Shown: positions 17,438-58,664, numbered from the stretch's first letter. The stretch: DNA of 64,000 nt from a virus (IMGVR_UViG_3300027763_000047:6308-70307); one strand, 5' to 3'. The notes: generated by a model not told the origin, from the sequence alone. Program-made: numbers and translations.

Positions 17438-17584
17438 TGGCCAATCCTTGATTGTTTCAAGTATTTAGTTAAAATAGGATATCATAGTTTTTGGGCGAAT
17501 CTAGCCAAAATATTTGTTTCTGTTGTCGTTTGCGCTATAATAACGCATAGGCTTAAAAACCTAACTACTTAAAAGGAAATCGTT

Positions 17585-17854
17585 ATGATTAAGAAATTAA
17601 ACAAAGGTACCAAGTCGCACCAGTTGTTCAAGCACCTACAGACCGGCGCTCAGATTACTGCCGCAGAAGCAGCTCGTATGTTCGGTATCAAGAATATTCG
17701 TGCTGAGGTTTCACGTGTACGTCACGCAGGTTTCGCAGTATACAGTAAGTCATATACTGCTGGTAACCATGTTAAAGTTACATACTACGTTATGGGAACC
17801 CCAAGTCAAGAGATCGTAGCTGCTGGCTATCGTGCGCTCGCATTAGGTCTGTAA
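17585..17854 (+). CDS. small hypothetical protein, possible HTH DNA-binding
   Basis: 89 aa; ITAAEAARMFGIKNIRAEVSRVR helix-turn-helix-like segment. Confidence 0.45.
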   Translation: MIKKLNKGTKSHQLFKHLQTGAQITAAEAARMFGIKNIRAEVSRVRHAGFAVYSKSYTAGNHVKVTYYVMGTPSQEIVAAGYRALALGL

Positions 17855-17881
17855 TACTCCGTTCGGTGTGTTATAAGTAAA

Positions 17882-17906
17882 AGCCCCAGCAATTGGGGCT
17901 TTTTTG
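17882..17906. terminator. bidirectional rho-independent terminator
   Basis: agcccca-gcaat-tggggct followed by tttttg; lies between convergent genes. Confidence 0.7.
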
Positions 17907-17912
17907 TGACAA

Positions 17913-18425
17913 TTACAGGAAGAACTTTTCATTCTCATAGAATATTCTACCGGAGATACTGAATCTTATCTTCCCAGGTTCAATACCACGTACTGCGTGA
18001 GGCTCGCTAACCTGTAGTATATGCCATCTATGTGGCTCGATATTCATTGATTGAACTTTTTCATGCGTCTTACCATCGTAAAATTCCGTAAGAACATTGT
18101 CGCCGCCTGTTTCAAAAATATAAGATATTTTTACAAGGGTAAGGTCTGTATGTGGAGCTAGGTCTCCATCTATAAATTGAAATCCCCAGGTTGTATCTGG
18201 TATTACGTTTTCATCACACCATTTGGCTATGGGACTTCCCATAATATTGGTACGTTTATAATTATCCCATTGATATAGATCTTCACCATGATATGTAGTA
18301 TAATCTCGACTGAGATTTGCTATTAGTTCTTCTGGAATTTTTGGGAGATTTATATATCTAATTGGTGAATTTTTCATGGTGCGCCTACTGTTTGAATATT
18401 TACTATAATTATTCACACTTGACAA
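17913..18425 (-). CDS. 2OG-Fe(II) oxygenase/cupin-like protein
   Basis: APHTDL (HxD) and distal EPHAV histidine. Confidence 0.45.
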   Translation of the reverse strand: MSSVNNYSKYSNSRRTMKNSPIRYINLPKIPEELIANLSRDYTTYHGEDLYQWDNYKRTNIMGSPIAKWCDENVIPDTTWGFQFIDGDLAPHTDLTLVKISYIFETGGDNVLTEFYDGKTHEKVQSMNIEPHRWHILQVSEPHAVRGIEPGKIRFSISGRIFYENEKFFL

Positions 18426-18447
18426 TTAAATAGACCCAGCATACAAT
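18419..18447 (+). promoter_or_regulatory. sigma70-type promoter of the TTGACAATTAA family
   Basis: ttgacaattaaatagacccagcatacaat. Confidence 0.6.
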
Positions 18448-18475
18448 AACTATAATTAAACAACGAGGAATTAGC

Positions 18476-18796: not shown

Positions 18797-18815
18797 TATC
18801 ATAACTTAGATTTTG

Positions 18816-18844
18816 GTTGACAATTAATTCAGTTAATTGTAAAC
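18816..18844 (+). promoter_or_regulatory. sigma70-type promoter of the TTGACAATTAA family
   Basis: ttgacaattaattcagttaattgtaaact. Confidence 0.6.
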
Positions 18845-18862
18845 TAGTGGTATTATAAATTA

Positions 18863-19999: not shown

Positions 20000-20014
20000 T
20001 TTTGGTGCTATAAT
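19986..20014 (+). promoter_or_regulatory. perfect consensus sigma70 promoter
   Basis: ttgacacagtgtgattttggtgctataat. Confidence 0.7.
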
Positions 20015-22429: not shown

Positions 22430-22442
22430 ACAAAAATATTGG

Positions 22443-31228: not shown

Positions 31229-31331
31229 CATGGCTTGGGCCTCTGCGGTTTAACCGTACGCCTGAGTTTTCTAAATATAGCAACAAAACCCTACCCTGCC
31301 TCTCGCAGAAGCACACTTTGGAGGGTTACTC

Positions 31332-31362
31332 GGGACACAGTAATGTGTCCCATTTCTTTCTC
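31332..31362 (+). terminator. rho-independent terminator
   Basis: gggacaca-gtaa-tgtgtccc followed by atttctttctc. Confidence 0.65.
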
Positions 31363-34302: not shown

Positions 34303-34417
34303 CGTCGGTAACGGCATCTGTATCGTTTTTGGCTAACCAGGTCAAGATGAATACTAAATTCAGATGAAATCTGCATGATGTGGATCAGTACGCTGTATCG
34401 GTATAAATACTATTATC

Positions 34418-39259: not shown

Positions 39260-39260
39260 G

Positions 39261-39961: not shown

Positions 39962-40521
39962 TTTTAATAAATACCTACATGAGAGATTTATTAAACTTAG
40001 TGGAAGCAGCAACCGTTTCAGCTAAACTGGAAACTACCCCACTACCCTACGCACATAAAGATCTGGCTCCCATAATGAGCGCAGACACAATAGAATACCA
40101 CTACGAGCACCTGGCTAAAGGCTACGCTAAAAAGTACAATGCCGGCGAAGGTGATGCCGATTTCAACCGTGCTGGCAGCTTCTTACACAACAAATTCTTT
40201 CCCCAATTGCAAGCACCAAAAGGTGCCAACCGTCCCAAGGGTGCGGTGCTAGAACTCATTGAAGCTAACTTCAAAACTTACGAAGATTTCAAGGTAGCGT
40301 TCAAAGAAGCTGCCATGAAGATTCAGGGATCGGGTTGGGTTTATCTCAGCACAGGTGGAACTATTAAAACCATACGAAATCATCAGGTTCGTACCGATAT
40401 TTGTGTACTGGTTGACTGGTGGGAACATTCATGGTCGACGGATTACAAGTGGGATAAAGAAAAGTATCTAGATAATATCTGGAAAATTATCAACTGGAAC
40501 GTATGTTCGGAGAGAATATGA
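39958..40521 (+). CDS. divergent Fe/Mn superoxide dismutase-like protein
   Basis: [37 protein letters not shown] resemble SOD N- and C-domain signatures. Confidence 0.65.
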
Positions 40522-40844
40522 TCACACTAACTGAAAACGCCGCGATTAAAATTAAAGATTTATTAGCAGAAGAAAACAATCCCAAGCTAAAACTTCGTGT
40601 ATTCGTTCAGGGCGGCGGATGCAGTGGAATGCAGACAGGCTTTACCATGGATGAAGAACAAGCTGACGATGACTGGGAGGTCGAAGTCAATGGCGTTCAT
40701 TTGTTAGTAGATAGTATGAGTAGTAATTATTTAAAAGGTTCAACCGTGGATTATCGCGATGATATCAATGGATCTGCCTTTGTTATCACTGGCATGGAAG
40801 CCACAACGACATGTGGCTGTGGTAGTAGTTTTTCACCATATTAA
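40518..40844 (+). CDS. Fe-S cluster insertion protein, ErpA/IscA/HesB family
   Basis: [14 protein letters not shown]...CGCGSSF conserved cysteines. Confidence 0.8.
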
Positions 40845-40901
40845 GCCCCGAATGACATAGACATTACTTTAGCTAAATAATAAGAGCTAAAGAGGACGGA
40901 T

Positions 40902-42323
40902 ATGTCGCAACAAATTATTAATGTAGGTACGGCGCCCAACGATGGTTTGGGAACTCCAATACGTACTGCTTTTCAGTACACAAATAATAACTTCACGCAA
41001 CTGTTTTCGTTGCCGAATCCTACACCCCCAACTACCCTAGTGGGCAAAGCGGGCGATGTCCCGGGTATGTATGCATACAGCGCGGCATATTTTTACTACT
41101 GTTTTGGAACTTATGATGGTTCCACTGTTATTTGGGCACAGATTGCCCAGGGTAATACCTCAATCTCAAATATCGTTAATGGCACTAGTAATGTAAGAAT
41201 CGGTAGTGCCAATGCCAATGTAACCGTGGGAGTAAACGGTACAGCAAATATTGCAGTTTTCAGTAATACTGGAGTATCAGTAACTGGTAATATTAGAACC
41301 TCTGGACAAATAACAGCCACTGGTAATGTATATGGTAATGCCATTGTCGGCACTTACTTGTACGGAGATGGCAGCAATATTAGTAACATATCAGGTGGCG
41401 GGAATTACAGTAATACCAATGCAGCAGCATATCTACAGGTACTAACTTCAAATGTATCAACAACTGGCAACATAACCGGAAGTTATATTTTAGGCAATGG
41501 TAGAAATTTAACTGGATTACCGTTAACCTATGGCAATGCTAACGTTGCTAACTTTTTACCAGTATTTACTGGTAACATATTATCAAGTAATATGACCGCT
41601 ACTGGAAACGTGCATGCCGGAAATATTAAAACGGTGGGAATAGTTTCAGCAACAGGAAACATCACTACTGACGGATATTTTATTGGCAATTTCGTTGGGA
41701 ACATATCAGGTAACTTAGTAGTGCCTGGATCGAATACTCAAGTACTTTATAATGATAATGGAAATGCTGGAGCAAGCGCCGGGTTAATATTTAACTCTGC
41801 ATCAAACATTTTATCAGTAACGGGAAATGTGTATGGCAATTATTTTCTTGGTAACGGTAGTCAATTAACAGGGTTACCAGTTACGTATGGCAATGCCAAT
41901 GTGGCTGCTTATCTACCAACTTATACCGGCAACATAACAGCAGGTAATATCAGTACCACTGGAAATATAACAGCTAGCTATATTTTAGGTAATGGTAGTC
42001 AATTAACTGGCATCGCCGCCACCGGCATAAATGCAAACGCACTAACTGGATCTACCTTATCAAGCAATGTTACTACCAGCAGCTTGACTTCTGTTGGTAC
42101 TTTGGCAAATTTAAGTGTAACCGGCAATGTAGTGGCATCTGGGGTAGTGACTTCTACCGGCACATTTAGATTGCCTAGTTATACTACCGCACAAATTGCC
42201 AACATATCAGCGGTAGAAGGAGATATGGTTTATAATTCAACTGTACAACAAATACAAGCATATCAAGCAAATGCCACAGGTAACGTAACATGGGTAAGTT
42301 TAAGTGTGTCTACTTACCAGTAA
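40902..42323 (+). CDS. tail fiber protein
   Basis: N-term MSQQIINVGTAPNDGLGTPIRTAFQYTNNNFTQLF; ILGNGSQLTG modules shared with the giant fiber. Confidence 0.8.
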   Translation: MSQQIINVGTAPNDGLGTPIRTAFQYTNNNFTQLFSLPNPTPPTTLVGKAGDVPGMYAYSAAYFYYCFGTYDGSTVIWAQIAQGNTSISNIVNGTSNVRIGSANANVTVGVNGTANIAVFSNTGVSVTGNIRTSGQITATGNVYGNAIVGTYLYGDGSNISNISGGGNYSNTNAAAYLQVLTSNVSTTGNITGSYILGNGRNLTGLPLTYGNANVANFLPVFTGNILSSNMTATGNVHAGNIKTVGIVSATGNITTDGYFIGNFVGNISGNLVVPGSNTQVLYNDNGNAGASAGLIFNSASNILSVTGNVYGNYFLGNGSQLTGLPVTYGNANVAAYLPTYTGNITAGNISTTGNITASYILGNGSQLTGIAATGINANALTGSTLSSNVTTSSLTSVGTLANLSVTGNVVASGVVTSTGTFRLPSYTTAQIANISAVEGDMVYNSTVQQIQAYQANATGNVTWVSLSVSTYQ

Positions 42324-45076: not shown

Positions 45077-45121
45077 CAATCAAATACGCTAAATAATAGA
45101 AACAATTAAGGAATACAGAAC

Positions 45122-46024
45122 ATGACCAGTGCAATAAATCCAAACAACATCAATGGCGCTTACCCAGTAGCGGGCCAAGATAATAATTCACAGGGGTTTC
45201 GTACTAATTTTACAAATACTTCGACCAACTTCCAGTATGCAGCACAAGAAATCACAGACTTACAGGGCAAAGTCGTGGTAAATGCACAGTTATCTGGCGG
45301 CGCGAACTTGTCAGTTCAAAACAACATGTTAAACTCTCCACTAACCAATGCGTTGGTAGCTGATTTTGCCTACACCACCGTTGGCCTTGGTAGTGTAAGC
45401 GGATCGTTTACTGTAAATTATGCAGTGGGTCATTATCAAACAGCCACACTAGCTGGCAGTGCAAGTGTAGCATTTACCAACTGGCCTATCTCCGGACAGA
45501 CAGGTGTGGTAACTTTGCAGGTTACCGTACCAAATACAGCATATACCCTGACACTACCCACGGCAGTCAGTCAAAATATTAACGGGATACAGGGTCTTGT
45601 GTATCCAGCAGGTGCTAGCCCAGTGATTCAATTTGCCGCGACCGGAGTTTATACTTTTGTATTCTCTACTAGCACAAATGGATCTACTATTATCATTAAT
45701 CAAAACAATGAAATACTGACCCCACTAAACAGCTCTAAAGAATCTGTAACAAGTGCCGCTGCTGCTAGCCTAGCAACAACTACCTCATTCTTTACCACAG
45801 CAGGAACCGCCACGCTGGCCAACGGAGTCGAGGGTCAGATCAAAGTGTTCACGCAAACTGCATCAGCCTCCATGGTTATTACGGTGGCCAGTGCCGGTTG
45901 GAACTCAGCAACATCGGGAACTTCTGGTACTATTACGCTGGCAGCTAGAGGTGCTGGATGCACCCTACAGTATACCAATTCGGTTTGGTACTGTATTGGT
46001 AATAACGGCGCTACGTTTGGTTAA
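45122..46024 (+). CDS. structural (fiber-like) protein
   Basis: Ser/Thr/Ala-rich 300 aa; CTAAATAATA late-promoter-like motif upstream. Confidence 0.5.
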   Translation: MTSAINPNNINGAYPVAGQDNNSQGFRTNFTNTSTNFQYAAQEITDLQGKVVVNAQLSGGANLSVQNNMLNSPLTNALVADFAYTTVGLGSVSGSFTVNYAVGHYQTATLAGSASVAFTNWPISGQTGVVTLQVTVPNTAYTLTLPTAVSQNINGIQGLVYPAGASPVIQFAATGVYTFVFSTSTNGSTIIINQNNEILTPLNSSKESVTSAAAASLATTTSFFTTAGTATLANGVEGQIKVFTQTASASMVITVASAGWNSATSGTSGTITLAARGAGCTLQYTNSVWYCIGNNGATFG

Positions 46025-46294: not shown

Positions 46295-46896
46295 ACGTTA
46301 GAATAGTTTGCCCCTTGAGTTTTATCGCCGGTATACACTATAACGGTGAATTACAAATGAATAGTTATACTGTTAAGTTATTCATTTTAACCAATAGTTT
46401 AGATGGAACTATCAATAACATTGCACTTGATAGAATAAAATACTTTGTCTATCGAGAAATGGATAGTACTATTTTTATCAACAGCAAAGAAGAAGATCAG
46501 TGTCGATTATATCTTGACGCTAACATCAAAATTACCACCATACCCGAAGAACCTATTGATCAACTGGTGGGTATAATGCTGTTTAATAAACTGACTGCCA
46601 TTGTTGAAGATAGACTTATTATTGATGAAATAGAAATAAGTTCTGGTCTTGGCGACGGTATAATTTACATGCATAGTCAAGAAGAAAATGTAGATGATTT
46701 ACCCATACCCGATTGGTGGGCAACTTCTGACCTAGCACATTGTGATGCTAAATTCCTTGACGCTGATGAATATATTACTCTAGCCAATGTAACTATATGG
46801 CGAGATTTAGAGTTGCAATGGCCCGACGAAGCTGAACCCGAAGTTGGAAATACTGTTGTATTTGCGGATTTTAAATTACTAGATGAAAAAGAATAA
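46291..46896 (+). CDS. hypothetical protein
   Basis: 201 aa. Confidence 0.5.
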   Translation: MNVRIVCPLSFIAGIHYNGELQMNSYTVKLFILTNSLDGTINNIALDRIKYFVYREMDSTIFINSKEEDQCRLYLDANIKITTIPEEPIDQLVGIMLFNKLTAIVEDRLIIDEIEISSGLGDGIIYMHSQEENVDDLPIPDWWATSDLAHCDAKFLDADEYITLANVTIWRDLELQWPDEAEPEVGNTVVFADFKLLDEKE

Positions 46897-47407
46897 TTAC
46901 GGGGAAATGATTTTTAATGAGAATGATGTCCTTGATCAATTGATGAAGGGGCGTGCCGTTGATTCATTGAAAGGTATGCTGGTGGATGAAACTGTTGATA
47001 TCGAACAGATAGTATATTTTGTGGATCACTTTCCAACTACGTTTATGCCATACAAATTTACTCCTGATCAAGTTGTCTCGGTGCCCGCATGGGATGCCGC
47101 TCAACAGAAGACCTGGCATATGCCCCAGCAGTATCAGGATATGGACATAGCAGAATACGTGTTAAGTTTATGTGTTGATGATGCCGAACTACAAAGGTGT
47201 GGGGAAGAGCTATTGCTGTACCAACAGCACAACCTATTTAATCTACTGAAATATTTAAAATATTTGGTGGATGTAATGAAAGAGAACCACGTAATTTGGG
47301 GTGTCGGGCGAGGCAGTAGTGTGGCCAGCTTTGTACTGTATAAATTAGGCGTACACCGTATAAACAGTATGTACTATAATTTATCCATCACCGAATTTTT
47401 ACGTTAA
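46883..47407 (+). CDS. hypothetical protein
   Basis: 174 aa. Confidence 0.5.
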   Translation: MKKNNYGEMIFNENDVLDQLMKGRAVDSLKGMLVDETVDIEQIVYFVDHFPTTFMPYKFTPDQVVSVPAWDAAQQKTWHMPQQYQDMDIAEYVLSLCVDDAELQRCGEELLLYQQHNLFNLLKYLKYLVDVMKENHVIWGVGRGSSVASFVLYKLGVHRINSMYYNLSITEFLR

Positions 47408-47431
47408 ATATAATGAATTCAGGAGAATATC

Positions 47432-47899
47432 ATGACAACAAAAGTCTATAAAACCGCAAAAGGTAAACCAGTAGACCTTGGAGCATTACGTTTACAAAAC
47501 GAAAATGTTCGAGCAGTTGGTAATATGAATGTAAATGCCCGTGGGGATAGGATCGACGCTGATGGCAACGTAATTGACCCTCGTAATCAACAGATTCAAC
47601 GACGAATACAACGACAAACTAATGTGGCCAGCGGACCGGTACACTCAAGCTCACGTGCTCAACAAGCGGAACAGGTAGCAGCAGAAAATCCAGTGATGCC
47701 CACACGACCAGTAGCACCGGCTGCGGATCCACTCCCTATTCCAGCGGCTCCTCCGGTTGCAACTAGGGAAACAATCGTTACCCAAGATAATGCATTTGCC
47801 GCGGCAATGGGACGTACCAAGACAGTTACACAGACGTTAGAATTAACCGAACGTCAGAAATTAGAAAATCAAATAGCGCAAGCAAAAAAGGGAAAATGA
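47432..47899 (+). CDS. hypothetical protein
   Basis: 155 aa; Pro/Ala-rich middle. Confidence 0.5.
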   Translation: MTTKVYKTAKGKPVDLGALRLQNENVRAVGNMNVNARGDRIDADGNVIDPRNQQIQRRIQRQTNVASGPVHSSSRAQQAEQVAAENPVMPTRPVAPAADPLPIPAAPPVATRETIVTQDNAFAAAMGRTKTVTQTLELTERQKLENQIAQAKKGK

Positions 47900-48291
47900 A
47901 AGCACAGTACGCACCACATAAAGTAGAAAAGCAGAAACTTAAAGTATTACAAAACAATGTTCTGGTATCGGATATGGTGTTTGATGAACGTATCAGTACA
48001 GGCGGTATCTTACTGTTAAATGACAATGGCAAAGGCAATGGTATTCGCCCACGCTGGGGTCGTGTATACGCAGTAGGTCCAGAACAAAAAGATGTTAACG
48101 TAGGTGATTGGGTATTGGTAGCACATGGTCGTTGGACTAGGGGTTTAGATCTCGAAGACGAAAATGGCAAATTAACCGTTCGTAAGATTGATCCTAAAGA
48201 TATCCTACTAGTATCAGATGACGAAGAGTGCCCCACAGTCGAAGGCATTAGTTCTGCCGTGCATGTAGATCGTAAGGAAATGCCTAATTAA
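47896..48291 (+). CDS. co-chaperonin GroES-like (Cpn10)
   Basis: TGGILL, RVYAVGPE...VNVGDWVLV, KDILLV match GroES core. Confidence 0.6.
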   Translation: MKAQYAPHKVEKQKLKVLQNNVLVSDMVFDERISTGGILLLNDNGKGNGIRPRWGRVYAVGPEQKDVNVGDWVLVAHGRWTRGLDLEDENGKLTVRKIDPKDILLVSDDEECPTVEGISSAVHVDRKEMPN

Positions 48292-48364: not shown

Positions 48365-49291
48365 ATGAATGATTTATGGACAGAAAAGTACAGACCCAAT
48401 ACAGTCGATGGATATGTTTTTACAGACGATGCACAACGACAGCAAGTACAACATTGGATTAAGCAAGGCAGTATCCCACACTTATTACTAAGTGGTAGTC
48501 CCGGCACTGGTAAAACTACCCTGGCTAAATTACTGATCAATGAGCTTGGGGTAGATGAATTTGATGTGCTATACTCAAATGGATCTAAAGATGCCCGTAA
48601 ACTAGATTGGGTGGACAAACTGATTGGCTTTTGTAGTACTATGCCTTTTGGTAAATTTAAAGTGGTATTGGTTGATGAAGCGGATTTTATGAATCCAAAT
48701 TCTGTACAACCAGCACTTAGAAACCTAATGGAAGACTACAGTGAAAGCGTCAGATTTATCCTGACCTGTAACTATCCCAATAAGATACTGCCAGCATTGC
48801 ACAGTCGGTGTCAAGGGTTTCACATGCAAAAGACAGATCTTGTGGAATTTACAGCTCGTCTAGCAACTGTATTGATCAGCGAAGAAATAGATTTTGACTT
48901 GCCCACACTTGATTTATTTGTAACAGCCACATATCCAGATCTACGTAAATCGTTAAATTTGCTACAGGCTAATTCAACAACAGGAAAACTTGTTGAGCCC
49001 AGTTCAACTGAACAGTCAGTTGATAATTGGAGACTGCAAGCAGTATCGTTATTCAAAGCTGGTAATATCAATGAAGCACGTAAGGTTATCTGCAATCAAG
49101 CAAACATTGAAGATATGGATAGCATGTATCGATGGATGTATGATAACCTTTCGCTATGGAGTGACACACAGGAAGGACAAGACCGAGCGATTATTATTAT
49201 TAGAAACTCGCTGGCTAACGTTCATTTGATGTCAGATCAAGAAATCAACTTATCAGCAACGCTTTGCGAATTAACTCAAATAGGAAATTAA
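48365..49291 (+). CDS. clamp-loader ATPase (RFC/gp44-like)
   Basis: WTEKYRP, Walker A SGSPGTGKTT, VLVDEADF. Confidence 0.75.
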   Translation: MNDLWTEKYRPNTVDGYVFTDDAQRQQVQHWIKQGSIPHLLLSGSPGTGKTTLAKLLINELGVDEFDVLYSNGSKDARKLDWVDKLIGFCSTMPFGKFKVVLVDEADFMNPNSVQPALRNLMEDYSESVRFILTCNYPNKILPALHSRCQGFHMQKTDLVEFTARLATVLISEEIDFDLPTLDLFVTATYPDLRKSLNLLQANSTTGKLVEPSSTEQSVDNWRLQAVSLFKAGNINEARKVICNQANIEDMDSMYRWMYDNLSLWSDTQEGQDRAIIIIRNSLANVHLMSDQEINLSATLCELTQIGN

Positions 49292-50162: not shown

Positions 50163-50935
50163 AGGCGAAGCACGGAATCAATGATTCTGTGCCGCTGTAT
50201 GTCGCGACTATCTAGCTCGCACACAGCTATTCCATTTACACCTCCTTTCAACAATCTTTGGCATAAATCTGCGAGGCCGTTGTTACCTTTAGTGCGGTCA
50301 GCTTGTTCAATATCTCCCGTAATGACGATTTTACTGCCTTCGCCGATACGTGTCATTAGCATCTTACATTGTGCCGGAGTAGCATTCTGCATCTCATCAG
50401 CTATAATGTATGCGTTTTTAAAGGTTCTACCCCTCATAAACGCAAGTGGTGCTATCTCTATTTTTTGATCCTCTAACATACCAGCAATATCCTGCTGACG
50501 ATAATATTCACGAAGAATATCAGTTAAGGGCCTTACCCATGGATCCATCTTTTGGTTTAAATCTCCTGGTAAAAATCCATGTTTTTCATCTTCTACGCCA
50601 ACTGCTGGTCGTGTTAGGATTATACGATCAACTTCTCCTTCGCGGAATGCCTTAACAGCGGCTAGCATAGCAAGGTAAGTTTTACCTGTACCAGCTGGAC
50701 CTGCTGTGATTACAATATGTTGACTTTCATCTTGCAATGCCAATACCAATCGCTCTTGATTTCGTGTACGGGGCACGATATCAATGGGACGTTGTTTTAA
50801 GGGTTTTGCTTGATTGAAGTTTATTGTATTTTCTTGAAATACCGTATCACGGCGTTGTGATTTTACTGCTTTGTGTCTACTCATTAAAGCCTCATGTAGA
50901 AGTAAGTTACTGCTATCAGCACCTTGCTGACCCAA
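50150..50935 (-). CDS. phoH: PhoH-like ATPase
   Basis: ITAGPAGTGKTYLAM and YIIADEMQN. Confidence 0.85.
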   Translation of the reverse strand: MGQQGADSSNLLLHEALMSRHKAVKSQRRDTVFQENTINFNQAKPLKQRPIDIVPRTRNQERLVLALQDESQHIVITAGPAGTGKTYLAMLAAVKAFREGEVDRIILTRPAVGVEDEKHGFLPGDLNQKMDPWVRPLTDILREYYRQQDIAGMLEDQKIEIAPLAFMRGRTFKNAYIIADEMQNATPAQCKMLMTRIGEGSKIVITGDIEQADRTKGNNGLADLCQRLLKGGVNGIAVCELDSRDIQRHRIIDSVLRLYSD

Positions 50936-51063
50936 GTATTTACATCAGTGTATTTTTATATTCTATGAGTAGTAAAAAGGTGTTATAAGTTGATAAGTAT
51001 TAGGCTATACTGTAAATTCTTACATTCCCAATATTATGCCATATTCGCAACTACACTAAATAC

Positions 51064-51686: not shown

Positions 51687-52244
51687 ATGACTAATAAACC
51701 ATCAAATTTTAACTTTGTTTTCGAAGGATTAGGATATAAGGATATGGATGGCTTGATCAAGCCTATTGTCCATGTTGATGAATTTACCAGTAAAATGGGT
51801 GACGATGATGATGTCATTGTATTATCTTTTTTCCTACGTGATCCTACCGCAGCCAAGGACCTAATGAATTGGTTTGAACGTGGCTATGATTTTATTATTG
51901 ATGCTGATCGTAGCCCAGGTGAAATCAAAACAAATAGATACCTAGTATTTGTTGAAATACGTCGACGCAGTACAGCCGGCGCACATGTCAACCGATTATT
52001 AGAAGACCTGAGTACACTAACAGAACATGATGTAGAAGATTGGAAAATGGTGTACGATGGTAAGGAATTTCCCTTTAGCCAGGAAGAGTTTGAAAAAATA
52101 GTTCCACTATCGCCAAAAGCATATCGCGAGGCACACGATGGTGAATTAAATGAAATGCGTACCGCAGCTGGATTACCAGTAAAAACATATTATGAGCAGG
52201 ATAACGATATTAAATCAATACAATCTGCTGCGGGGATACTGTAA
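51687..52244 (+). CDS. hypothetical protein
   Basis: 185 aa. Confidence 0.5.
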   Translation: MTNKPSNFNFVFEGLGYKDMDGLIKPIVHVDEFTSKMGDDDDVIVLSFFLRDPTAAKDLMNWFERGYDFIIDADRSPGEIKTNRYLVFVEIRRRSTAGAHVNRLLEDLSTLTEHDVEDWKMVYDGKEFPFSQEEFEKIVPLSPKAYREAHDGELNEMRTAAGLPVKTYYEQDNDIKSIQSAAGIL

Positions 52245-52492: not shown

Positions 52493-52753
52493 TTATTTTA
52501 CTGAATCAAATATCTTTTTTTGTTCTATATACCAGTTATTCCACGCATCAACTTTGTAACTACATTCATGATATTTTCCATAGTTTGTAGTTACATTAGA
52601 TATTAAAACACTTAGTTTATTAGTTATAGGAGCAGCAGTAAGCTGTTCACATGCTGTGGTCAATGATGGCGGAACAGATGGAAAATTTCTTTCAACCGGC
52701 GTTGCGACACAGCCTGTTAAAAATAATAAAGATAAAATTATAACTGATTTCAT
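52493..52753 (-). CDS. o-spanin-like outer-membrane lipoprotein
   Basis: lipobox LFLTGC; ATGA overlap with upstream gene. Confidence 0.5.
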   Translation of the reverse strand: MKSVIILSLLFLTGCVATPVERNFPSVPPSLTTACEQLTAAPITNKLSVLISNVTTNYGKYHECSYKVDAWNNWYIEQKKIFDSVK

Positions 52754-53196
52754 TTCTTAACTCCTACTAATGCTGATTGATTTAGTATGTCAATAGCCAA
52801 TGGATCAACTTTACAAGTTAAGTCAAGTTTAGCAGCATTTTTGGCAATGCGATTTTTAACTACATACTGAACTTCTTTCACAATTTTAACACGATCAACA
52901 TACACCGTTTCAATTTTGCCATTAGCTTCAGCGGCCTCCTTCTCTGCCTTAGCAACCTTTATTTCAAGTTCGGCAACTCTTGCTGCCCATTTGGCTTCAT
53001 TTGCAATTCCGCCTTCTATCCACACACAAAATACAATAAGCACGGCACTAGCAATACGAATTACAAATGCATTGGTTGTGATAAAAGGAATCATTTTAAG
53101 AATGTAGCTGGCCCCAAATGCTAGTATAGCAAATATTAACAATAGATGATATACAAAATCAGGTAATAAAGATAACAGCCACATTATTTGCCACAT
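52750..53196 (-). CDS. i-spanin-like membrane protein with coiled coil
   Basis: N-terminal TM(s) then AARVAELEIKVAKAEKEAAEANGKIE coiled coil; directly downstream of endolysin. Confidence 0.45.
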   Translation of the reverse strand: MWQIMWLLSLLPDFVYHLLLIFAILAFGASYILKMIPFITTNAFVIRIASAVLIVFCVWIEGGIANEAKWAARVAELEIKVAKAEKEAAEANGKIETVYVDRVKIVKEVQYVVKNRIAKNAAKLDLTCKVDPLAIDILNQSALVGVKK

Positions 53197-53197
53197 A

Positions 53198-53827
53198 TCA
53201 TGCCCCTAGTACGTGACAAGCATGTTGATAGTGTTTTTCTCTGTCAGCAAGGCCAATGGTGCCACCATTGATTCGTTTAGTTAATGTTAAAATATCACCT
53301 GCGTCAGCAAATTGATTTAGTCCATTAGTTTCCCAGAACCAACATGCGCTCTGAACAGCGCCTTCAAATGTACCTAGGTACTCTGGCAATTGTTCAACAG
53401 GAGTTTCTATACTTTCCGCAAAGCGTGTATAATTATCTTTGCCTGTTAACTGGATAAGACCCTTGCCTGCGTAACGCCATCCATCACCACTTTCTTCTGG
53501 ACCATTGCCCATGCGGTCACAATAAGCACGATTGGCTATCATTTCTTGATTGTGTGCGTATTGCTCTGCAATAGCAGGCGGAAAACGACTAGGCCAGACA
53601 CGGCTTAATGATGCTGCTGTGTAGTTTAAGTTTTCTTTTAATGCTGTAAAATTAGCACTCTCGTGGGCACATTGAGCTAAAAAAGCAGCTACCCTAGGTA
53701 CTGTGTTAATTTCGTAATCAGGTAATATACGTGATATAGCATCATACCACTCTGCCACATACGGATTGTTAGGTATAATTTGTGCCAGTTGTTCTGGTGT
53801 AAAGTTGAATGCGAATCCTTGACTCAT
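53198..53827 (-). CDS. GH19 (chitinase-like) endolysin
   Basis: AAFLAQCAHESANF and YAGKGLIQLTGKDNY signatures. Confidence 0.8.
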   Translation of the reverse strand: MSQGFAFNFTPEQLAQIIPNNPYVAEWYDAISRILPDYEINTVPRVAAFLAQCAHESANFTALKENLNYTAASLSRVWPSRFPPAIAEQYAHNQEMIANRAYCDRMGNGPEESGDGWRYAGKGLIQLTGKDNYTRFAESIETPVEQLPEYLGTFEGAVQSACWFWETNGLNQFADAGDILTLTKRINGGTIGLADREKHYQHACHVLGA

Positions 53828-53838
53828 TTAATTTTCCT

Positions 53839-54195
53839 TTATTTTTTAGGTACTAGGTGACCAAACTGAGCTTCAGCACGGCGTGTGCCTGGACCAGTAA
53901 TTCCATCTGCTGTGATCTTAGCTCCGGCAGCAATTAGTTCTTTTTGACGTTTCTGAACAGCAGCATCAAAACCAGGTGGTTTAGCAGCTGGCTTGGCAGG
54001 TGCCTTAGCTGGTACTGCTGTGCCTTCGTATTTCTTGTGTACCTTAATAGTACGGCAAGTTTGCTTAGTTGTCCCATCTTTATTTAATACAACATGACCA
54101 GCTTTGTCTTTAACTGGATTACATACTTGTTTAGTTTCGGCGGCATTAGCAGAAGATGCTATGCCTAATATGATTATTGCAAATAGAGTTTTCAT
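53839..54195 (-). CDS. secreted protein with PG_binding_1-like domain
   Basis: signal peptide; DGITGPGTRRAEAQFG. Confidence 0.5.
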   Translation of the reverse strand: MKTLFAIIILGIASSANAAETKQVCNPVKDKAGHVVLNKDGTTKQTCRTIKVHKKYEGTAVPAKAPAKPAAKPPGFDAAVQKRQKELIAAGAKITADGITGPGTRRAEAQFGHLVPKK

Positions 54196-54204
54196 TATTA
54201 TTCC

Positions 54205-54729
54205 TTATAAGGGTTGATCTACTTGTGCTGCTGGACCTGGTTTGCCAGCATACATAGTTTTTGTTGGTGCGCTGTTAAACCCGGGAGATGGACTGTTAAA
54301 TCCATTTGAGGGACTATTGAATCCAGGTGATGGGCTACCAAATCCAGATGATGGACTGTTAAGCCCGGTTGACGGACTGTTAAATCCTGACGATGGGCTA
54401 CCATATCCATTTGATGGATTATTACCATACCCTGTATTCATGCCATTGTTGACCCCGGCTAATTTTTCTTGGGTACGCCCAAATGCCGCTACTCCTATTA
54501 TGGCACCCATTGCCATATGAAATAGTCCTGCTCCTTGAAGAGTGATTGGTTGCCATTGTGTTTCAACACGGCCACCATGTGCTGCTTGTATTAAACTCCA
54601 TAGTATAGGAAATACCACAAAATCACACATACAGACAAACATATACATCCACCCCATCATAGGGCGCCATTTGCTGTTCATCCAATCTTCTTTTTTCTTT
54701 TCGCTTTCAGATTGTACTGTTTCTGACAT
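54205..54729 (-). CDS. holin-like membrane protein with C-terminal SPSxGFN heptad repeats
   Basis: two TM segments; 7 tandem S-P-S-x-G-F-N repeats; first gene of lysis cluster. Confidence 0.4.
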   Translation of the reverse strand: MSETVQSESEKKKEDWMNSKWRPMMGWMYMFVCMCDFVVFPILWSLIQAAHGGRVETQWQPITLQGAGLFHMAMGAIIGVAAFGRTQEKLAGVNNGMNTGYGNNPSNGYGSPSSGFNSPSTGLNSPSSGFGSPSPGFNSPSNGFNSPSPGFNSAPTKTMYAGKPGPAAQVDQPL

Positions 54730-54779
54730 ACTAAATCCTCGAATTGTACAGATATTTATCTAGATTCACCAAAGCTAGA

Positions 54780-55638: not shown

Positions 55639-55701
55639 TCTTATCACTTGTATTTAAAATATTTTTACTATATACTATAACGGTACTGGATAAAGGATAC
55701 C

Positions 55702-57981
55702 ATGCAAAACAACAAAGAAATTGAAGCAATTGTAGGGCAGGCGGTTTCGATTGCTCGGATTAAACATCACGAGTATGTGCTAACCGAACATATATTATTG
55801 GCCTTAATACGCCACATTCCTTTCCGCAAAGTACTGGAAGGATTCGGTACAAGTATTGCACTCATGGACGAGGAATTAGATGTCTATTTGGACAGTTTAA
55901 CCAGTATAGTTACATCTAAGTCAGAATTTCAACCACGTAAAACTAACGCCCTTGAACGTTGTTTTAATCGGGCTATGACACAGGTGTTATTTACTGGCCG
56001 CCGTTCAGTAACCACATTTGATTTGTATCTTGCTATGATGAGTGAGACAAACAGTCACGCACATTACTTCCTGATGAAGTATGGAGTTAAGAAAGCCGAG
56101 TTTATGGAATACTGGCAGCAAAATTATAAAGCTGAAGATGCCGAGGTTAGTGCTTCTGAAGCTGATGCCATCTTAACTGAATTTTGTACAAACCTAACCA
56201 AAATGGCTACTGAAGATAAGTTAGAGCCAATGATTGGCCGCTCAGCTGAACTAGACGAAATCATTACTGTACTGGCTCGAAAGTTTAAAGCTAACGTACT
56301 AATGGTGGGCGATCCGGGTGTAGGCAAAACTGCCATCGCAGAAGGGCTTGCCCAGGAAATTGTAAACAACCGTGTACCCGCATTCCTTAACGGACATGAA
56401 GTATGGAGTTTGGAAATCGGCTCATTGTTAGCCGGCAGTAAGTATCGTGGCGAATTTGAGGAAAAGTTTAAACAGGTCATTGGTGCATTAGAAGCCAAGA
56501 AAAATTGTATCTTATTTGTTGATGAAGCACATACAATGAAAGGCGCTGGCGCAAGTTCACAATCATCACTAGACTTTGCTAATATGCTAAAGCCAGCTAT
56601 TACCAAGGGTTATCTTAAGGTAATTGCGTCAACTACCTGGGAAGAATTCTATGAGTCATTTGAAAAGGATCGTGCGCTAATGCGTCGATTCCATCGTGTG
56701 TCCATTGACGAACCCACGCCAGAAGTAACGGAGCAAATCTTAATCGGCTTATCACCTCGCTTGGAAAAATTCCACGATGTGTTGATTGATACTGATGCTA
56801 TTAAAGCAGCAGTAGACTTGTCGGGTCGTTACATACATGATCGCAAGAATCCAGATAAGTCAATTGACTTGCTAGACGGTGCATGTGCCAAGGAACGTGT
56901 TAAAGATATAGGCACTACTACTGTGACTAAAGACATGATCATGGCACAGTTGAGTCGTATTACTGAGGTTCCCATGGATCGTTTACAAAACGAACGTTCG
57001 GCTAATATTGTGGAACTGGAAGGTAATATTAAACAGAAGTTGTATGGCCAAGACGAAGCTGTTAATTCGGTACTTGAGCGGGTATACATTAACTTCTCGG
57101 GTATTGGTAACGAAAACAAACCAATTGCCAGCTTCTTATTCTTGGGACCAACTGGCACAGGTAAGACAGAATTGGCCAAGTTATTGGCTGAGCATTTAGA
57201 TATGCAGTTGTTGAAATATGACATGAGTGAGTTCCAGGAGAAGCATACTGTTAGCTCATTGATTGGTGCTCCCCCAGGATACGTTGGGTTTGAAGATGGT
57301 AATGTGGGTGGTGGAAAACTTATTAGTGATGTCAGTAAGAACCCTTATTCAATCTTGTTGTTTGATGAAATTGAAAAGGCACATCCGGATGTAGTTAACC
57401 TTATGTTGCAAATGTTGGATGAAGCTCGCATCACCAGTGCCAATGGTAAAACTGTTAACCTGAAGAACTGCATCATTATTATGACCAGTAACTTAGGTGC
57501 TCGCGACAATGAGAATAACAACATTGGCTTTGGGCAGACACTGGAAAAGACAGGATCAGAACACAAGGCAATGAAGGATTTCTTTAAACCTGAATTACGT
57601 AATCGTATTGATCAAATCTGTCGCTTTAAGAAACTAGATACACTGGCTGTTAAGAAAATTGTTGTTAAATTTGTTGATCAACTACAAACCAGTTTAAGCA
57701 CAAAGAATATTCGTCTTAACTTATCCGAGCCAGTAATCGACATGCTGGTTGAAAAAGGCTATGATAACAAGATGGGTGCTCGACCATTAAATCGTAAGAT
57801 TGATGAACTTATTCGCGTACCATTGAGTAAGAAAATTCTCTTTGAACGATTAAGTGACTGTGTAATTACAGCGGACATGGTTAATGATCAAATTGACTTT
57901 ATCATCATACCTAATCCCGCATTAGCTATTGTCGACAACTCAGGAATTATTTTACTTGATGGCGAATCTTCCACCGTTTAA
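55702..57981 (+). CDS. ClpA-like AAA+ unfoldase (two AAA domains)
   Basis: Clp-N LTEHILLALI; D1 GDPGVGKTAIAEGLA; D2 GPTGTGKTELAKLLAE, LLFDEIEKAHPDV; 759 aa. Confidence 0.85.
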   Translation: MQNNKEIEAIVGQAVSIARIKHHEYVLTEHILLALIRHIPFRKVLEGFGTSIALMDEELDVYLDSLTSIVTSKSEFQPRKTNALERCFNRAMTQVLFTGRRSVTTFDLYLAMMSETNSHAHYFLMKYGVKKAEFMEYWQQNYKAEDAEVSASEADAILTEFCTNLTKMATEDKLEPMIGRSAELDEIITVLARKFKANVLMVGDPGVGKTAIAEGLAQEIVNNRVPAFLNGHEVWSLEIGSLLAGSKYRGEFEEKFKQVIGALEAKKNCILFVDEAHTMKGAGASSQSSLDFANMLKPAITKGYLKVIASTTWEEFYESFEKDRALMRRFHRVSIDEPTPEVTEQILIGLSPRLEKFHDVLIDTDAIKAAVDLSGRYIHDRKNPDKSIDLLDGACAKERVKDIGTTTVTKDMIMAQLSRITEVPMDRLQNERSANIVELEGNIKQKLYGQDEAVNSVLERVYINFSGIGNENKPIASFLFLGPTGTGKTELAKLLAEHLDMQLLKYDMSEFQEKHTVSSLIGAPPGYVGFEDGNVGGGKLISDVSKNPYSILLFDEIEKAHPDVVNLMLQMLDEARITSANGKTVNLKNCIIIMTSNLGARDNENNNIGFGQTLEKTGSEHKAMKDFFKPELRNRIDQICRFKKLDTLAVKKIVVKFVDQLQTSLSTKNIRLNLSEPVIDMLVEKGYDNKMGARPLNRKIDELIRVPLSKKILFERLSDCVITADMVNDQIDFIIIPNPALAIVDNSGIILLDGESSTV

Positions 57982-58003
57982 TCACTTTGAACACAGGAGT
58001 ACT

Positions 58004-58654
58004 GTGCTCAAAGATCGATTATTTTATGATAAATTCAAATACTGTATCTCCTTCGTAATGGATGAGATTACAATATTAATTAAACCCGTTACTCATTATG
58101 ATATTGATCGCTTGATTGATATTCGTAATGAGTATCGAAGACAGTATTCAAGGAATAGCCGACCATACAAAGTTCCGGATATTGCCTTGGATATACGACA
58201 ACAGATTCACGAAATAGCCGATATATTGATCAAGACAACGGAAGATTACAAATTCAATACATCATATAGAACAATGTGGTTGTATACCAACAGCGAAGAT
58301 CTTATTAACAAGTTGGATAAATTAGAATTTATTAGTAACATAAAAGTAAGCGAAGCTATTGTAAACCGACCCAGAGGTACTGTTAAACTAAAGAATCCCG
58401 AACACACGCATCGCAGCTATTTTCGTTTTCTTAGGCCCACTGTTGATGATCGCAGGAGAATTGTTAATTTCCTAGACACTCACTCCTCCCATATTAAGCC
58501 CAGTCCGGCATTGTCACGATATCTGCTCAACGACGGCTTTCCTTTTATTCTGGAATATTTTTTTATAGATTATACAGGTGAGAGTTGGGTAACTGTTTTG
58601 ACCTTGTTGTATCCGGGATTAATTAGGAAGACCCTACCAATTATCCCAGCATAA
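58004..58654 (+). CDS. hypothetical protein
   Basis: GTG start with GGAG RBS; track extension from 57929 overlaps clpA-like 3' end. Confidence 0.45.
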   Translation: MLKDRLFYDKFKYCISFVMDEITILIKPVTHYDIDRLIDIRNEYRRQYSRNSRPYKVPDIALDIRQQIHEIADILIKTTEDYKFNTSYRTMWLYTNSEDLINKLDKLEFISNIKVSEAIVNRPRGTVKLKNPEHTHRSYFRFLRPTVDDRRRIVNFLDTHSSHIKPSPALSRYLLNDGFPFILEYFFIDYTGESWVTVLTLLYPGLIRKTLPIIPA

Positions 58655-58664
58655 ATAATAGACT

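What the first reader, a model, noticed from the sequence alone, without database searches (positions are those of the whole stretch)
17463..58660. CTAAATA / ATAAATA late-promoter-like motifs upstream of structural genes
The motifs found are: CTAAATACTTGA on the minus strand at 17463-17469 before the giant fiber; CTAAATAATA at 40873 before the fiber gene at 40902; CTAAATAATA at 45089 before the gene at 45122; CTAAATACTTGA at 51053 before the gene at 51064; ATAAATAATA before the gene at 58665; and TATAAATA before the gene at 34418. These resemble T4-type late promoters (TATAAATA, or CTAAATA in marine T4-like phages), which would be consistent with the gp44-like clamp loader found here.
Basis: partly seen in the sequence, partly recalled or inferred. 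Interest (0 to 1): 0.55.

Follow-up and report, generated by a model that had tools for sequence, protein, structure and literature searches.

The report
Phage late promoters, many abutting start codons
The short DNA word TAAATA in this uncultured freshwater giant-phage fragment is very likely the T4-type "late" promoter that turns on virion and lysis genes, and in about a third of cases it sits so close to the start codon that the mRNA should have essentially no leader.

Summary
Raw counts are not above chance: CTAAATA occurs 10 times against 13.9 expected, TATAAATA 2 against 7.1. Position is very non-random. The core TAAATA is the top hexamer of all 4096 for lying upstream of ORF starts in sense orientation.

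Comparison with about 1 Mb of related viral contigs settles it. [A/C]TAAATA is kept upstream of orthologues of the motif-bearing genes (39/41, 9/9, 4/4, 2/2) while the flanks diverge. It is absent (0/142) upstream of nine neighbouring gene families.

The sites lack a -35 element, lie on both strands, and precede fibre-like, virion, lysis, PhoH and chaperonin genes. A separate class of 15 textbook sigma-70 promoters, all on the + strand, serves the other genes. So the T4-type late-promoter reading is supported. It is a known kind: ATAAATA was already reported in the jumbo phages CBB and GAP32.

No gp55 gene lies in the window. All cultured relatives have one.

New here: motif-to-ATG spacing is bimodal. 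It is 16-30 nt with a Shine-Dalgarno, or 4-8 nt with none, in at least 8 gene families. The short class implies leaderless late mRNAs. It was nearly absent from the other phage groups sampled.

The parts
17462..17468 (-). CTAAATA late-promoter box. It lies 24 nt before ATG 17437 of the 2324-aa fibre-like repeat protein (10463-17437), with the Shine-Dalgarno AAGGA in between.
   Evidence: In 4/4 orthologous loci CTAAATA is kept at N22-25 with a Shine-Dalgarno. No -35 match (2/6).
10451..10457 (-). CTAAATA box between the giant gene's stop and ATG 10434 (N16, Shine-Dalgarno AAGGA). It would drive 10111-10434, 9358-10107 and 9028-9348.
   Evidence: No orthologous loci were available.
40873..40879 (+). 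CTAAATA box, N22, Shine-Dalgarno AGAGGA, before 40902-42323 (473 aa). That protein shares fibre-like repeats with the giant protein. The 913-aa Ig-domain protein at 42335-45076 follows.
   Evidence: 2/2 orthologues keep it.
45089..45095 (+). CTAAATA box, N26, Shine-Dalgarno AAGGA, before 45122-46024 (300 aa, function unknown).
   Evidence: 9/9 unique orthologous upstream regions keep [A/C]TAAATA at N19-27 plus a Shine-Dalgarno, while the flanks diverge.
47404..47410 (+). TTAAATA box, N21, Shine-Dalgarno AGGAG, before 47432-47899 (orthologue of PA5oct gp195) and the gp31/GroES-like co-chaperonin at 47896-48291. Its TAA is also the stop codon of 46883-47407.
   Evidence: TAAATA is kept in 10/10 orthologues. 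Part of that conservation is explained by the stop codon and the upstream coding sequence, so confidence is lower. PHROG hits.
50937..50943 (-). GTAAATA box before PhoH. The likely start is ATG 50884, giving a 52-nt leader that begins with a hairpin and carries a GAGG Shine-Dalgarno.
   Evidence: GTAAATAC plus the hairpin is kept in several orthologues, with changes on both sides of the stem.
51056..51062 (+). CTAAATA box only 7 nt before ATG 51070, with no Shine-Dalgarno. The gene is a virion structural protein (phrog_12928), orthologous to the MS-verified PA5oct gp189. A second virion protein at 51687-52244 follows.
   Evidence: 39 of 44 unique orthologous upstream regions have [A/C]TAAATA exactly 5 (24), 7 (12) or 8 (3) nt before the ATG. 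Annotation and synteny.
54753..54759 (-). ATAAATA box, N23, Shine-Dalgarno GAGGA, before the minus-strand lysis cassette: holin-like 54205-54729, 53839-54195, endolysin 53198-53827, 52750-53196, 52493-52753.
   Evidence: holin and endolysin PHROGs. Kept in the 3 close orthologues. In other relatives the endolysin has its own CTAAATA at N19-26.
58651..58657 (+). ATAAATA box 7 nt before ATG 58665, with no Shine-Dalgarno. The 122-aa product is a weak orthologue of the MS-verified PA5oct structural protein gp185. Its TAA is the stop codon of 57929-58654.
   Evidence: 15 unique orthologous contexts keep ATAAATA at N7, and one more has CTAAATA at N7. PA5oct gp185 has ATAAATA at N24 with a Shine-Dalgarno.
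59886..59892 (+). GTAAATA box, N24, Shine-Dalgarno AGAGGA, before 59917-60843 (308 aa, widely conserved, function unknown).
   Evidence: 61 unique orthologous contexts keep [T/G]TAAATA at N23-30.
60866..60914 (+). A strong intrinsic terminator (14-bp stem, 60866-60899, then a T-tract) is followed at once by a GTAAATA box (60908-60914). The box is 5 nt before ATG 60920 of an 819-aa protein, with no Shine-Dalgarno.
   Evidence: terminator; 57 orthologous contexts in the family, most at spacing 4-8; several of the relatives printed also keep the upstream terminator.
34402..34409 (+). TATAAATA, the full T4 consensus, 8 nt before ATG 34418 (646 aa, DUF4116 repeats). No Shine-Dalgarno.
   Evidence: 3/3 orthologues have ATAAATA at N4 or N7.
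39967..39973 (+). ATAAATA box 5 nt before ATG 39979 of a Fe/Mn superoxide-dismutase-like protein. An IscA/HesB-like gene at 40503-40844 follows.
   Evidence: Pfam. 1/1 orthologue has N5.
31271..31355 (+). Orphan CTAAATA box (31271-31277) followed by about 70 nt with no ORF. This stretch folds into two hairpins, the second being a terminator (GGGACACA-gtaa-TGTGTCCC then a T-rich tail). Possibly a late small RNA.
   Evidence: MFE -26.9 kcal/mol, z = -4.2. No Rfam hit. Conservation not tested.
48365..49291 (+). gp44-like clamp-loader ATPase. This is context for clamp-dependent late transcription, not part of a promoter.
   Evidence: phrog_168, E = 5e-77. 54% identical to the PA5oct homologue.

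Best explanation
The elements are promoters of the T4 late class. Each is a single -10-positioned box with invariant core TAAATA and a gene-specific preceding base (C or A mostly). I infer it is read by host core RNA polymerase carrying a phage gp55-family sigma encoded elsewhere in the genome. By analogy with T4, a DNA-loaded sliding clamp would assist; the window encodes the clamp loader. These promoters switch on virion, fibre, lysis, PhoH and chaperonin genes on either strand. A separate set of canonical sigma-70 promoters (TTGACA-N17-TATAAT, all on the + strand) drives the early genes.

Two architectures exist.
(i) Box, then 16-30 nt, then ATG, with a Shine-Dalgarno in the leader.
(ii) Box, then 4-8 nt, then ATG, with no Shine-Dalgarno. 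Under T4 geometry the box spans -13 to -6 and the start site is 6 nt after it. That puts the 5' end at, or within about 3 nt of, the A of ATG, so these mRNAs would be leaderless.

Shown: the sequences, their positional bias, their gene-specific conservation, and the two spacing classes. Inferred: promoter activity, late timing, which sigma is used, and leaderless 5' ends.
For: Positional enrichment in the window.

Gene-specific conservation.
- [A/C]TAAATA is kept in 39/41, 9/9, 4/4 and 2/2 orthologous upstream regions.
- It is absent in 0/142 upstream regions of nine neighbouring gene families that lack it in the window.

Across 155 related loci (about 1 Mb), 184 of 711 unique TAAATA sites lie 4-8 nt before an ORF-opening ATG, 112 lie 15-30 nt before one, and 2 lie at 9-15 nt. 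The reverse complement gives 5 and 13 of 720. Non-overlapping hexamers of the same composition give at most 18 and 27.

Promoter character.
- No -35 element: the best TTGACA match is 4/6 or less at 18 of 20 sites.
- The last box base is A where sigma-70 needs T.
- The first three positions downstream are AT-rich, as in T4 (PMC2988020).
- Both strands are used while all 15 sigma-70 promoters are on the + strand. T4 shows the same pattern, and PA5oct early transcription is also almost entirely from one strand.

Targets: virion proteins, holin and endolysin, and fibre-like proteins. PA5oct orthologues gp189 and gp185 are MS-verified virion proteins and also carry ATAAATA. GATAAATA precedes the first genes of PA5oct structural operons.

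gp55-like sigma: annotated in PA5oct, Atu_ph07, GAP32 and CBB. 5645 homologues occur in metagenomes.

Leaderless class.
- At least 8 independent gene families keep N4-8.
- All 189 such starts are ATG, and none has room for a Shine-Dalgarno.
- At 60866-60920 a strong terminator leaves only the box between it and the ATG.
- At 51056 the gene is first after a divergent intergenic region.
Against: - No transcript 5' ends or timing data exist for this uncultured phage.
- No gp55, gp33 or sliding-clamp gene was found in the 64-kb window. I could not show gp55 on a contig of the same clade.
- Raw motif counts are at or below chance. Against AT-rich upstream composition the window-only enrichment is moderate, 18 against 7.2, so some individual sites (7698, 18397, 29444, 36919, 39703) may be chance.
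- At 47404 and 58651 the TAA of the box is also the upstream gene's stop codon, which explains part of the conservation.
- Several target genes have no known function, and SOD and PhoH are not structural.
- The related loci were fetched around motif-bearing genes, so clade-wide site frequencies are inflated.
- In the N7 class a conserved A-C at spacer positions 5-6 could mean a 3-nt leader rather than a truly leaderless mRNA.
Confidence: 0.8

Rival explanations
1. The boxes are weak, -35-independent promoters read by the host's own sigma-70 holoenzyme, not by a phage late sigma.
For: The box sits where a -10 element would and is AT-rich. 18397(-) and 40874(+) have 5/6 TTGACA-like hexamers 16-17 nt upstream. 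PA5oct growth is rifampicin-sensitive, so host RNAP does the transcribing.
Against: TAAATA has A where sigma-70 requires the near-invariant T at -7. No TGn extended -10 is present. 18 of 20 sites lack a -35 match. The same window holds 15 textbook TTGACA-N17-TATAAT promoters serving a disjoint set of genes. The box matches the invariant core shared by T4-family late promoters. Relatives encode gp55.
Confidence: 0.07
2. TAAATA acts at the RNA level. It would be a processing site, or an A/U-rich translation enhancer standing in for a Shine-Dalgarno at the genes where it lies 4-8 nt before the ATG.
For: In the short class the motif occupies the position a Shine-Dalgarno would, and those genes have none. 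It is strand-specific.
Against: - In the other class the same motif lies 16-30 nt upstream with a canonical Shine-Dalgarno between it and the ATG, so it is not a ribosome-binding site there.
- The empty 9-15 nt gap fits 'leader long enough for a Shine-Dalgarno, or no leader', not a sliding RNA signal.
- UAAAUA pairs poorly with the anti-Shine-Dalgarno sequence.
- At 60866-60920 a strong terminator directly precedes it, so there should be little upstream RNA to process.
- An orphan copy precedes a terminator-ended non-coding stretch.
Confidence: 0.08
3. The matches are chance occurrences of an AT-rich word in AT-rich intergenic DNA.
For: CTAAATA and TATAAATA are at or below the shuffled expectation. 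Upstream regions are 64% A+T. Four CTAAATA copies lie inside genes.
Against: TAAATA ranks first of 4096 hexamers by position. Sense outnumbers antisense 18 to 8. Conservation is 39/41, 9/9 and 4/4 against 0/142 across diverged orthologues. The spacing distribution is sharply bimodal and absent for the reverse complement and for non-overlapping same-composition controls.
Confidence: 0.03

Closest known systems
Bacteriophage T4 late promoters (TATAAATA, read by gp55 with gp33 and the gp45 sliding clamp)
   Same: A single box at about -10, no -35 element, an AT-rich downstream segment, and use on either strand before virion and lysis genes (PMC2988020; PMC1524935). The core TAAATA is identical. 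One site (34402) has the full TATAAATA. A gp44-like clamp loader is present.
   Different: The base before TAAATA is C, A, G or T depending on the gene, and T at -13 is not conserved. gp55, gp33 and gp45 are not seen in the window. About a third of sites abut the start codon. T4 sites were not measured here.
CTAAATA late promoters of Aeromonas phage Aeh1
   Same: The same heptamer with C at -12, predicted upstream of late-gene orthologues (PMC1524935; PMC2988020).
   Different: Aeh1 is a conventional T4-like phage. Here C alternates with A between orthologues of one gene (18 CTAAATA against 21 ATAAATA before the 51070 family).
ATAAATA motif before structural genes of the Rak2-like jumbo phages CBB and GAP32, with a gp55-like sigma (CBB_244)
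   Same: The same wider group of T4-related jumbo phages. The same in-silico inference: 35 sites before structural genes, and a gp55-like sigma present (PMC5259590). PA5oct, the closest cultured relative of the window, shows GATAAATA before its MS-verified structural operons, although its own paper lists only sigma-70-type promoters.
   Different: In the 119 kb of PA5oct sequence examined, and in the gp55 neighbourhoods of other groups, the box is 16-42 nt upstream with a Shine-Dalgarno. The 4-8 nt class is almost absent there: 1/224, 3/418, 0/103 and 3/138 sites, against 184/711 in the window's clade.
Leaderless genes (lambda cI from PRM; genes of Actinobacteria and Deinococcus with a -10 box about 6-8 nt before the ATG)
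   Same: A -10-type box 4-8 nt before an ATG, with no Shine-Dalgarno. To my knowledge this is the signature gene finders use to call leaderless transcription.
   Different: Here the box is of the phage late-sigma type and is used for abundant late proteins. The 5' ends are unmapped. I found no report of gp55-type promoters making leaderless mRNAs in the held literature.

Membership tests
T4-type (gp55-dependent) late promoter | TATAAATA-like box at the -10 position upstream of the gene | tested here: met
   The core TAAATA is invariant at about 14 sites. There is one full TATAAATA (34402), and C or A precedes the core at 11 sites. The box is conserved in orthologues.
T4-type (gp55-dependent) late promoter | No conserved -35 element | tested here: met
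   The best TTGACA match 16-18 nt upstream is 4/6 or less at 18 of 20 sites. No conserved column lies upstream of -3 in the site profiles.
T4-type (gp55-dependent) late promoter | AT-rich segment immediately downstream of the box | tested here: met
   In 120 leadered sites, A+T at the first three positions after the box is 80, 67 and 76%. The feature is stated in PMC2988020.
T4-type (gp55-dependent) late promoter | Precedes late-function genes (virion, lysis), on either strand, separately from early promoters | tested here: met
   Targets are virion proteins, holin and endolysin, and fibre-like proteins. Orthologues are MS-verified in PA5oct. Four sites are on the minus strand, while all 15 sigma-70 promoters are on the plus strand. 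Timing itself is untested.
T4-type (gp55-dependent) late promoter | Genome encodes a gp55-family sigma factor | tested here: inconclusive
   None in the window: PHROG, Pfam and NCBIfam scans and tblastn with Atu_ph07 gp694. It is present in PA5oct, Atu_ph07, GAP32 and CBB.
T4-type (gp55-dependent) late promoter | gp33 co-activator and gp45 sliding clamp with clamp loader | tested here: inconclusive
   The clamp loader is found (48365-49291). No clamp or gp33 was recognised in the window. CBB's authors also found neither, whereas a comparative study reports gp33 orthologues across this jumbo-phage group.
T4-type (gp55-dependent) late promoter | Transcription starts about 6 nt after the box, late in infection, and depends on replication | not testable with these tools
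   Uncultured phage, with no transcript data.
Leaderless mRNA gene | Promoter -10 box 4-8 nt upstream of the start codon | tested here: met
   Window sites 34402 (N8), 39967 (N5), 51056 (N7), 58651 (N7) and 60908 (N5). There are 184 unique sites in relatives, with peaks at 5 and 7, in at least 8 gene families.
Leaderless mRNA gene | No Shine-Dalgarno, and an AUG start codon | tested here: met
   The spacers are too short and contain no GGAG- or AGGA-type word. 189 of 189 starts are ATG, but so are all 109 leadered ones, so this does not discriminate.
Leaderless mRNA gene | The mRNA 5' end coincides with the start codon | not testable with these tools
   Inferred only from T4 geometry, with the box at -13 to -6.
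Sigma-70 housekeeping promoter | -35 TTGACA and -10 TATAAT (T at -7) separated by 16-18 nt | tested here: not met
   TAAATA ends in A, and the -35 is absent. True members of this family occur elsewhere in the window.

The most novel reading that the evidence does not exclude
In a large, abundant clade of uncultured freshwater jumbo phages, a substantial share of late genes are transcribed from gp55-type promoters fused to the start codon. These include MS-class virion proteins, an 819-aa protein and a superoxide dismutase. Late protein synthesis would then rely heavily on leaderless (5'-AUG, Shine-Dalgarno-independent) translation. PA5oct does not use this arrangement at the orthologous genes, and I did not find it described for T4-type late promoters.
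Probability: 0.55. Interest if true: 0.6.

Novelty: new variant of a known kind. Interest (0 to 1): 0.45.

Why it matters
The finding gives a two-word promoter grammar for a large group of uncultured freshwater giant phages: sigma-70-type TTGACA-N17-TATAAT for early genes and TAAATA for late genes. With it, genes of unknown function can be sorted into early and late sets. Start codons can be corrected (51070, 60920, 39979 and PhoH at 50884), and transcription units and orphan RNAs can be predicted from sequence alone.

It also shows that the closest model phage, PA5oct, has unreported T4-type late promoters.

If the start-codon-abutting class really yields leaderless mRNAs, it would be a natural system in which a phage late sigma and leaderless translation are coupled. 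That bears on how phages keep translating late in infection. It is directly testable with 5'-end mapping.

Tried and rejected
(1) Linking a gp55 gene to the window's own clade failed.
- A scan with an alignment of gp55 proteins returned only the 80 loci closest to PA5oct, none on clade contigs.
- No gp55 lies in the fetched clade loci.
- A freshwater gp55 chosen as a seed belonged to a different phage group, with contigs up to about 140 kb.
- A degenerate DNA pattern for the conserved gp55 peptide hit 33 contigs, none in the clade.
- Matching 'longest contig' lengths between the protein-search hits and the clade contigs gave nothing.
- Two long gp55-bearing contigs turned out to be PA5oct-like: GC 38-40%, no tblastx hit to the window, GATAAATA with leaders.

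(2) megablast of 24 kb against GenBank phages found no match. There is no close sequenced relative.

(3) PHROG, Pfam, NCBIfam and PDB sequence searches gave no function for most motif-preceded genes: 10111, 40902, 45122, 59917, 60920.

(4) Start-codon usage as a test of leaderless translation was uninformative, because both classes use only ATG.

(5) No tRNA or Rfam family lies in the window.

(6) I rejected as late promoters those TAAATA copies that lie inside sigma-70 promoters or their leaders (7698, 18427, 54786), one that overlaps a stop codon just ahead of a sigma-70 promoter (7220), and several unconserved or oddly spaced ones (18397, 29444, 32656, 36919).

Full report
**What the window is.** It is a 64-kb, 41% GC fragment of an uncultured phage. 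There is no nucleotide match in GenBank phages.
- Its clamp loader (48365-49291, phrog_168) is 54% identical to that of Pseudomonas jumbo phage PA5oct. It is 42-44% identical to those of Phosso, Atu_ph07 and SCTP-2.
- Gene order from 46.9 to 59 kb matches PA5oct gp196 to gp185: PolIII-like fragment, gp195, GroES-like chaperonin, clamp loader, gp191, PhoH on the opposite strand, two virion proteins, DnaJ, a ClpA/Lon-like ATPase, and a structural protein.
- Identical proteins occur in freshwater-lake metagenomes.
- Hundreds of related IMG/VR contigs, up to about 350 kb, exist.
- So this is a T4-related 'group 2' jumbo phage in the sense of PMC7824862.

**Observation.** All six listed motifs exist, with two coordinates off by 1 and 3 nt.

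By raw count nothing is unusual. CTAAATA occurs 10 times against 13.9 expected, and TATAAATA 2 times against 7.1. Four CTAAATA copies lie inside or antisense to genes.

The signal is positional.
- In the 60 nt upstream, in sense, of 108 greedily chosen ORFs, TAAATA is the top hexamer: 18 regions against 2.5 expected, p = 2e-10.
- Against a Markov model of those AT-rich regions it is 18 against 7.2 +/- 2.6, and against 8 in antisense.
- 10 of the 17 [A/C]TAAATA copies are upstream in sense.
- TAAATA ranks first of 4096 hexamers for lying 4-8 or 16-30 nt before an ORF-opening ATG.

**A second, distinct promoter class.** Fifteen near-perfect sigma-70 promoters, TTGACA(aTTAAaT)-N17-TATAAT, all lie on the + strand. 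They sit before small unknown ORFs, methyltransferase-like genes, a phosphoesterase, an SPFH protein and DnaJ.

None of these genes is structural. TAAATA sites lack a -35 element, end in A where sigma-70 needs T, and occur on both strands. T4 shows the same split: early and middle transcripts have one polarity and late transcripts either. In PA5oct, early transcription is likewise almost entirely from one strand.

**Comparative test.** I fetched 155 loci (about 1 Mb) from related viral contigs around orthologues of five window genes.
- Upstream of orthologues of the 51070 virion gene (48-89% protein identity), 39 of 44 unique regions carry [A/C]TAAATA exactly 5, 7 or 8 nt before the ATG. The rest of the region has diverged.
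- Orthologues of 45122 keep it in 9/9 regions at 19-27 nt, with a Shine-Dalgarno.
- The giant fibre-like gene keeps it in 4/4, and 40902 in 2/2.
- Nine neighbouring gene families without the motif in the window have it in 0 of 142 orthologous upstream regions.
- In PA5oct the orthologous, mass-spectrometry-verified virion genes gp189 and gp185 carry ATAAATA at 27 and 24 nt.
- GATAAATA precedes the first genes of PA5oct baseplate, head, tail-fibre and sheath operons. It is not placed that way in the 44-kb early region of PA5oct. The PA5oct paper lists only sigma-70-type promoters.

**Identity of the element.** The geometry and content match T4 late promoters.
- There is a single box at -13 to -6, no -35 element, and an AT-rich downstream segment.
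- Variation is tolerated at -13 and -12: A in many T4 relatives, C in Aeh1.
- The same inference was already published for the Rak2-like jumbo phages CBB and GAP32. It rests on an ATAAATA motif at 35 sites before structural genes and a gp55-like sigma.
- gp55-like 'sigma factor for late transcription' genes are annotated in PA5oct, Atu_ph07, GAP32, CBB and others. 5645 homologues exist in metagenomes.
- None is in the window. Several attempts to place one on a contig of the same clade failed for technical reasons. That link stays inferred.

**Targets in the window.**
- The 2324-aa protein and the 473-aa protein, which share fibre-like repeats.
- A 300-aa unknown.
- Two virion proteins.
- The holin and endolysin cassette on the minus strand.
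- PhoH.
- An operon containing a gp31/GroES-like co-chaperonin.
- A Fe/Mn-SOD-like gene.
- Three conserved unknowns.

**The unexpected part.** Spacing from TAAATA to the ORF-opening ATG is bimodal across the related loci.
- 184 unique sites lie at 4-8 nt, with peaks at 5 and 7.
- 112 lie at 15-30 nt, with a peak at 24.
- 2 lie at 9-15 nt.
- The reverse complement gives 5 and 13. Non-overlapping hexamers of the same composition give at most 18 and 27.
- Sites printed from the long class carry canonical Shine-Dalgarno words. The short class has no room for one.
- At least eight independent gene families keep the short spacing.
- In the window the short class is 34402 (N8), 39967 (N5), 51056 (N7), 58651 (N7) and 60908 (N5).
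- With T4 geometry the start site is 6 nt after the box. N5 therefore puts +1 on the A of ATG, and N7-8 leaves a leader of 3 nt or less.

Two contexts make an upstream promoter unlikely.
- The 51070 gene is first after a 128-bp divergent region shared with PhoH.
- 60920 is preceded by a 14-bp-stem terminator whose T-tract runs into the box. Several of the relatives printed keep this arrangement.

The short class is nearly absent from the other T4-related sets I sampled:

| Set | Sites at 4-8 nt / all TAAATA sites |
|---|---|
| PA5oct, 119 kb | 1/224 |
| PA5oct-like gp55 loci | 3/418 |
| Other gp55 clade (seeded from L139) | 0/103 |
| Rak2-like and other jumbo phages | 3/138 |
| Window's clade | 184/711 |

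Those other sets cover different genomic regions, and my clade loci were centred on motif-bearing genes. The contrast is therefore indicative, not quantitative. I found no report of leaderless transcripts from T4-type late promoters in the held literature.

**Rivals.**
- Chance is excluded for the core sites by the conservation data.
- Host sigma-70 recognition is unlikely. The box lacks T at -7 and a -35 element, and it coexists with textbook sigma-70 promoters on other genes.
- An RNA-level role (processing site or Shine-Dalgarno surrogate) fails to explain three things: the long class with a real Shine-Dalgarno, the empty 9-15 nt gap, and the terminator-box-ATG arrangement.

**Verdict.** The refinement is a TAAATA core with a gene-specific -1 base. 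The conserved start-codon-abutting architecture, implying leaderless late mRNAs, is the part worth following up. Confidence is about 0.8 that these are late promoters and about 0.55-0.6 that the short class gives leaderless mRNAs.

Noticed in passing
window 7239, 7656, 18419, 18817, 19986, 21332, 22443, 23066, 23886, 27350, 31363, 31548, 36442, 38832, 54780 (+ strand): Fifteen near-consensus sigma-70 promoters with an exact 17-nt spacer. Many have an extended -35, TTGACAATTAA(A/T)T. All are on the + strand. They look like the phage's early promoters. Several 'TTG' ORF starts (19986, 21332) are really the TTGACA of these promoters.
   Followed up: partly
window 31271-31355 (+): An orphan CTAAATA box is followed by about 70 nt without an ORF. 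The stretch folds into two hairpins, the second being an intrinsic terminator (MFE -26.9, z = -4.2). This may be a late small RNA. There is no Rfam match.
   Followed up: partly
window 50884-50943 (-) and loci L008, L010, L012, L017, L020: The PhoH mRNA would begin with a hairpin just after GTAAATAC. In the window it is GGTCAGCA-agg-TGCTGA; in relatives it is GACAGCA-tgg-TGCTGTC. The stem is kept through changes on both sides. PhoH most likely starts at ATG 50884, not at TTG 50935.
   Followed up: partly
L361 (PA5oct 50-100 kb), L157, L075: PA5oct has (G)ATAAATA 16-42 nt before the first genes of its MS-verified structural operons. One case directly follows a terminator, before tail-fibre gene gp324. 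The PA5oct paper reports only sigma-70-type promoters.
   Followed up: partly
window 39979-40844 (+): A Fe/Mn superoxide-dismutase-like gene and an IscA/HesB-like Fe-S assembly gene sit together behind a start-codon-abutting ATAAATA box. An HNH endonuclease gene (39177-39710) lies just upstream.
   Followed up: no
window 52493-54729 (-): A five-gene lysis cassette (holin-like, unknown, endolysin, signal-peptide protein, unknown) lies on the minus strand. It sits between the virion genes and DnaJ, at a point where PA5oct has nothing. Relatives place the endolysin differently and give it its own CTAAATA.
   Followed up: partly
window 1-5700: A run of about 25 short ORFs of 60-100 aa, mostly on the + strand. 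Repeated sequence between 3.7 and 4.1 kb suggests paralogous small genes, as in the early regions of jumbo phages.
   Followed up: no
window 10463-17437 (-) and 40902-42323 (+): The 2324-aa protein and the 473-aa protein share degenerate repeats of the type TGNV..GN(G)S.(L/I)T(G/N), typical of fibrous tail proteins. Neither matches any PHROG or Pfam family above its threshold.
   Followed up: partly
window 46883-47407 (+): A 174-aa protein matches a phage 'DNA polymerase' PHROG and, weakly, the Pfam PolIII-alpha family. It is orthologous to PA5oct gp196. It may be the minimal PolIII-type module noted for this phage group.
   Followed up: no
L077-L099 (gp55 neighbourhoods in IMG/VR): In 20 of the 23 gp55-like sigma loci I examined, a TAAATA box lies 17-27 nt before an ORF. 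In PA5oct and two long PA5oct-like contigs (L362, L364) the gp55-like gene lies divergent from a baseplate/virion gene block.
   Followed up: no
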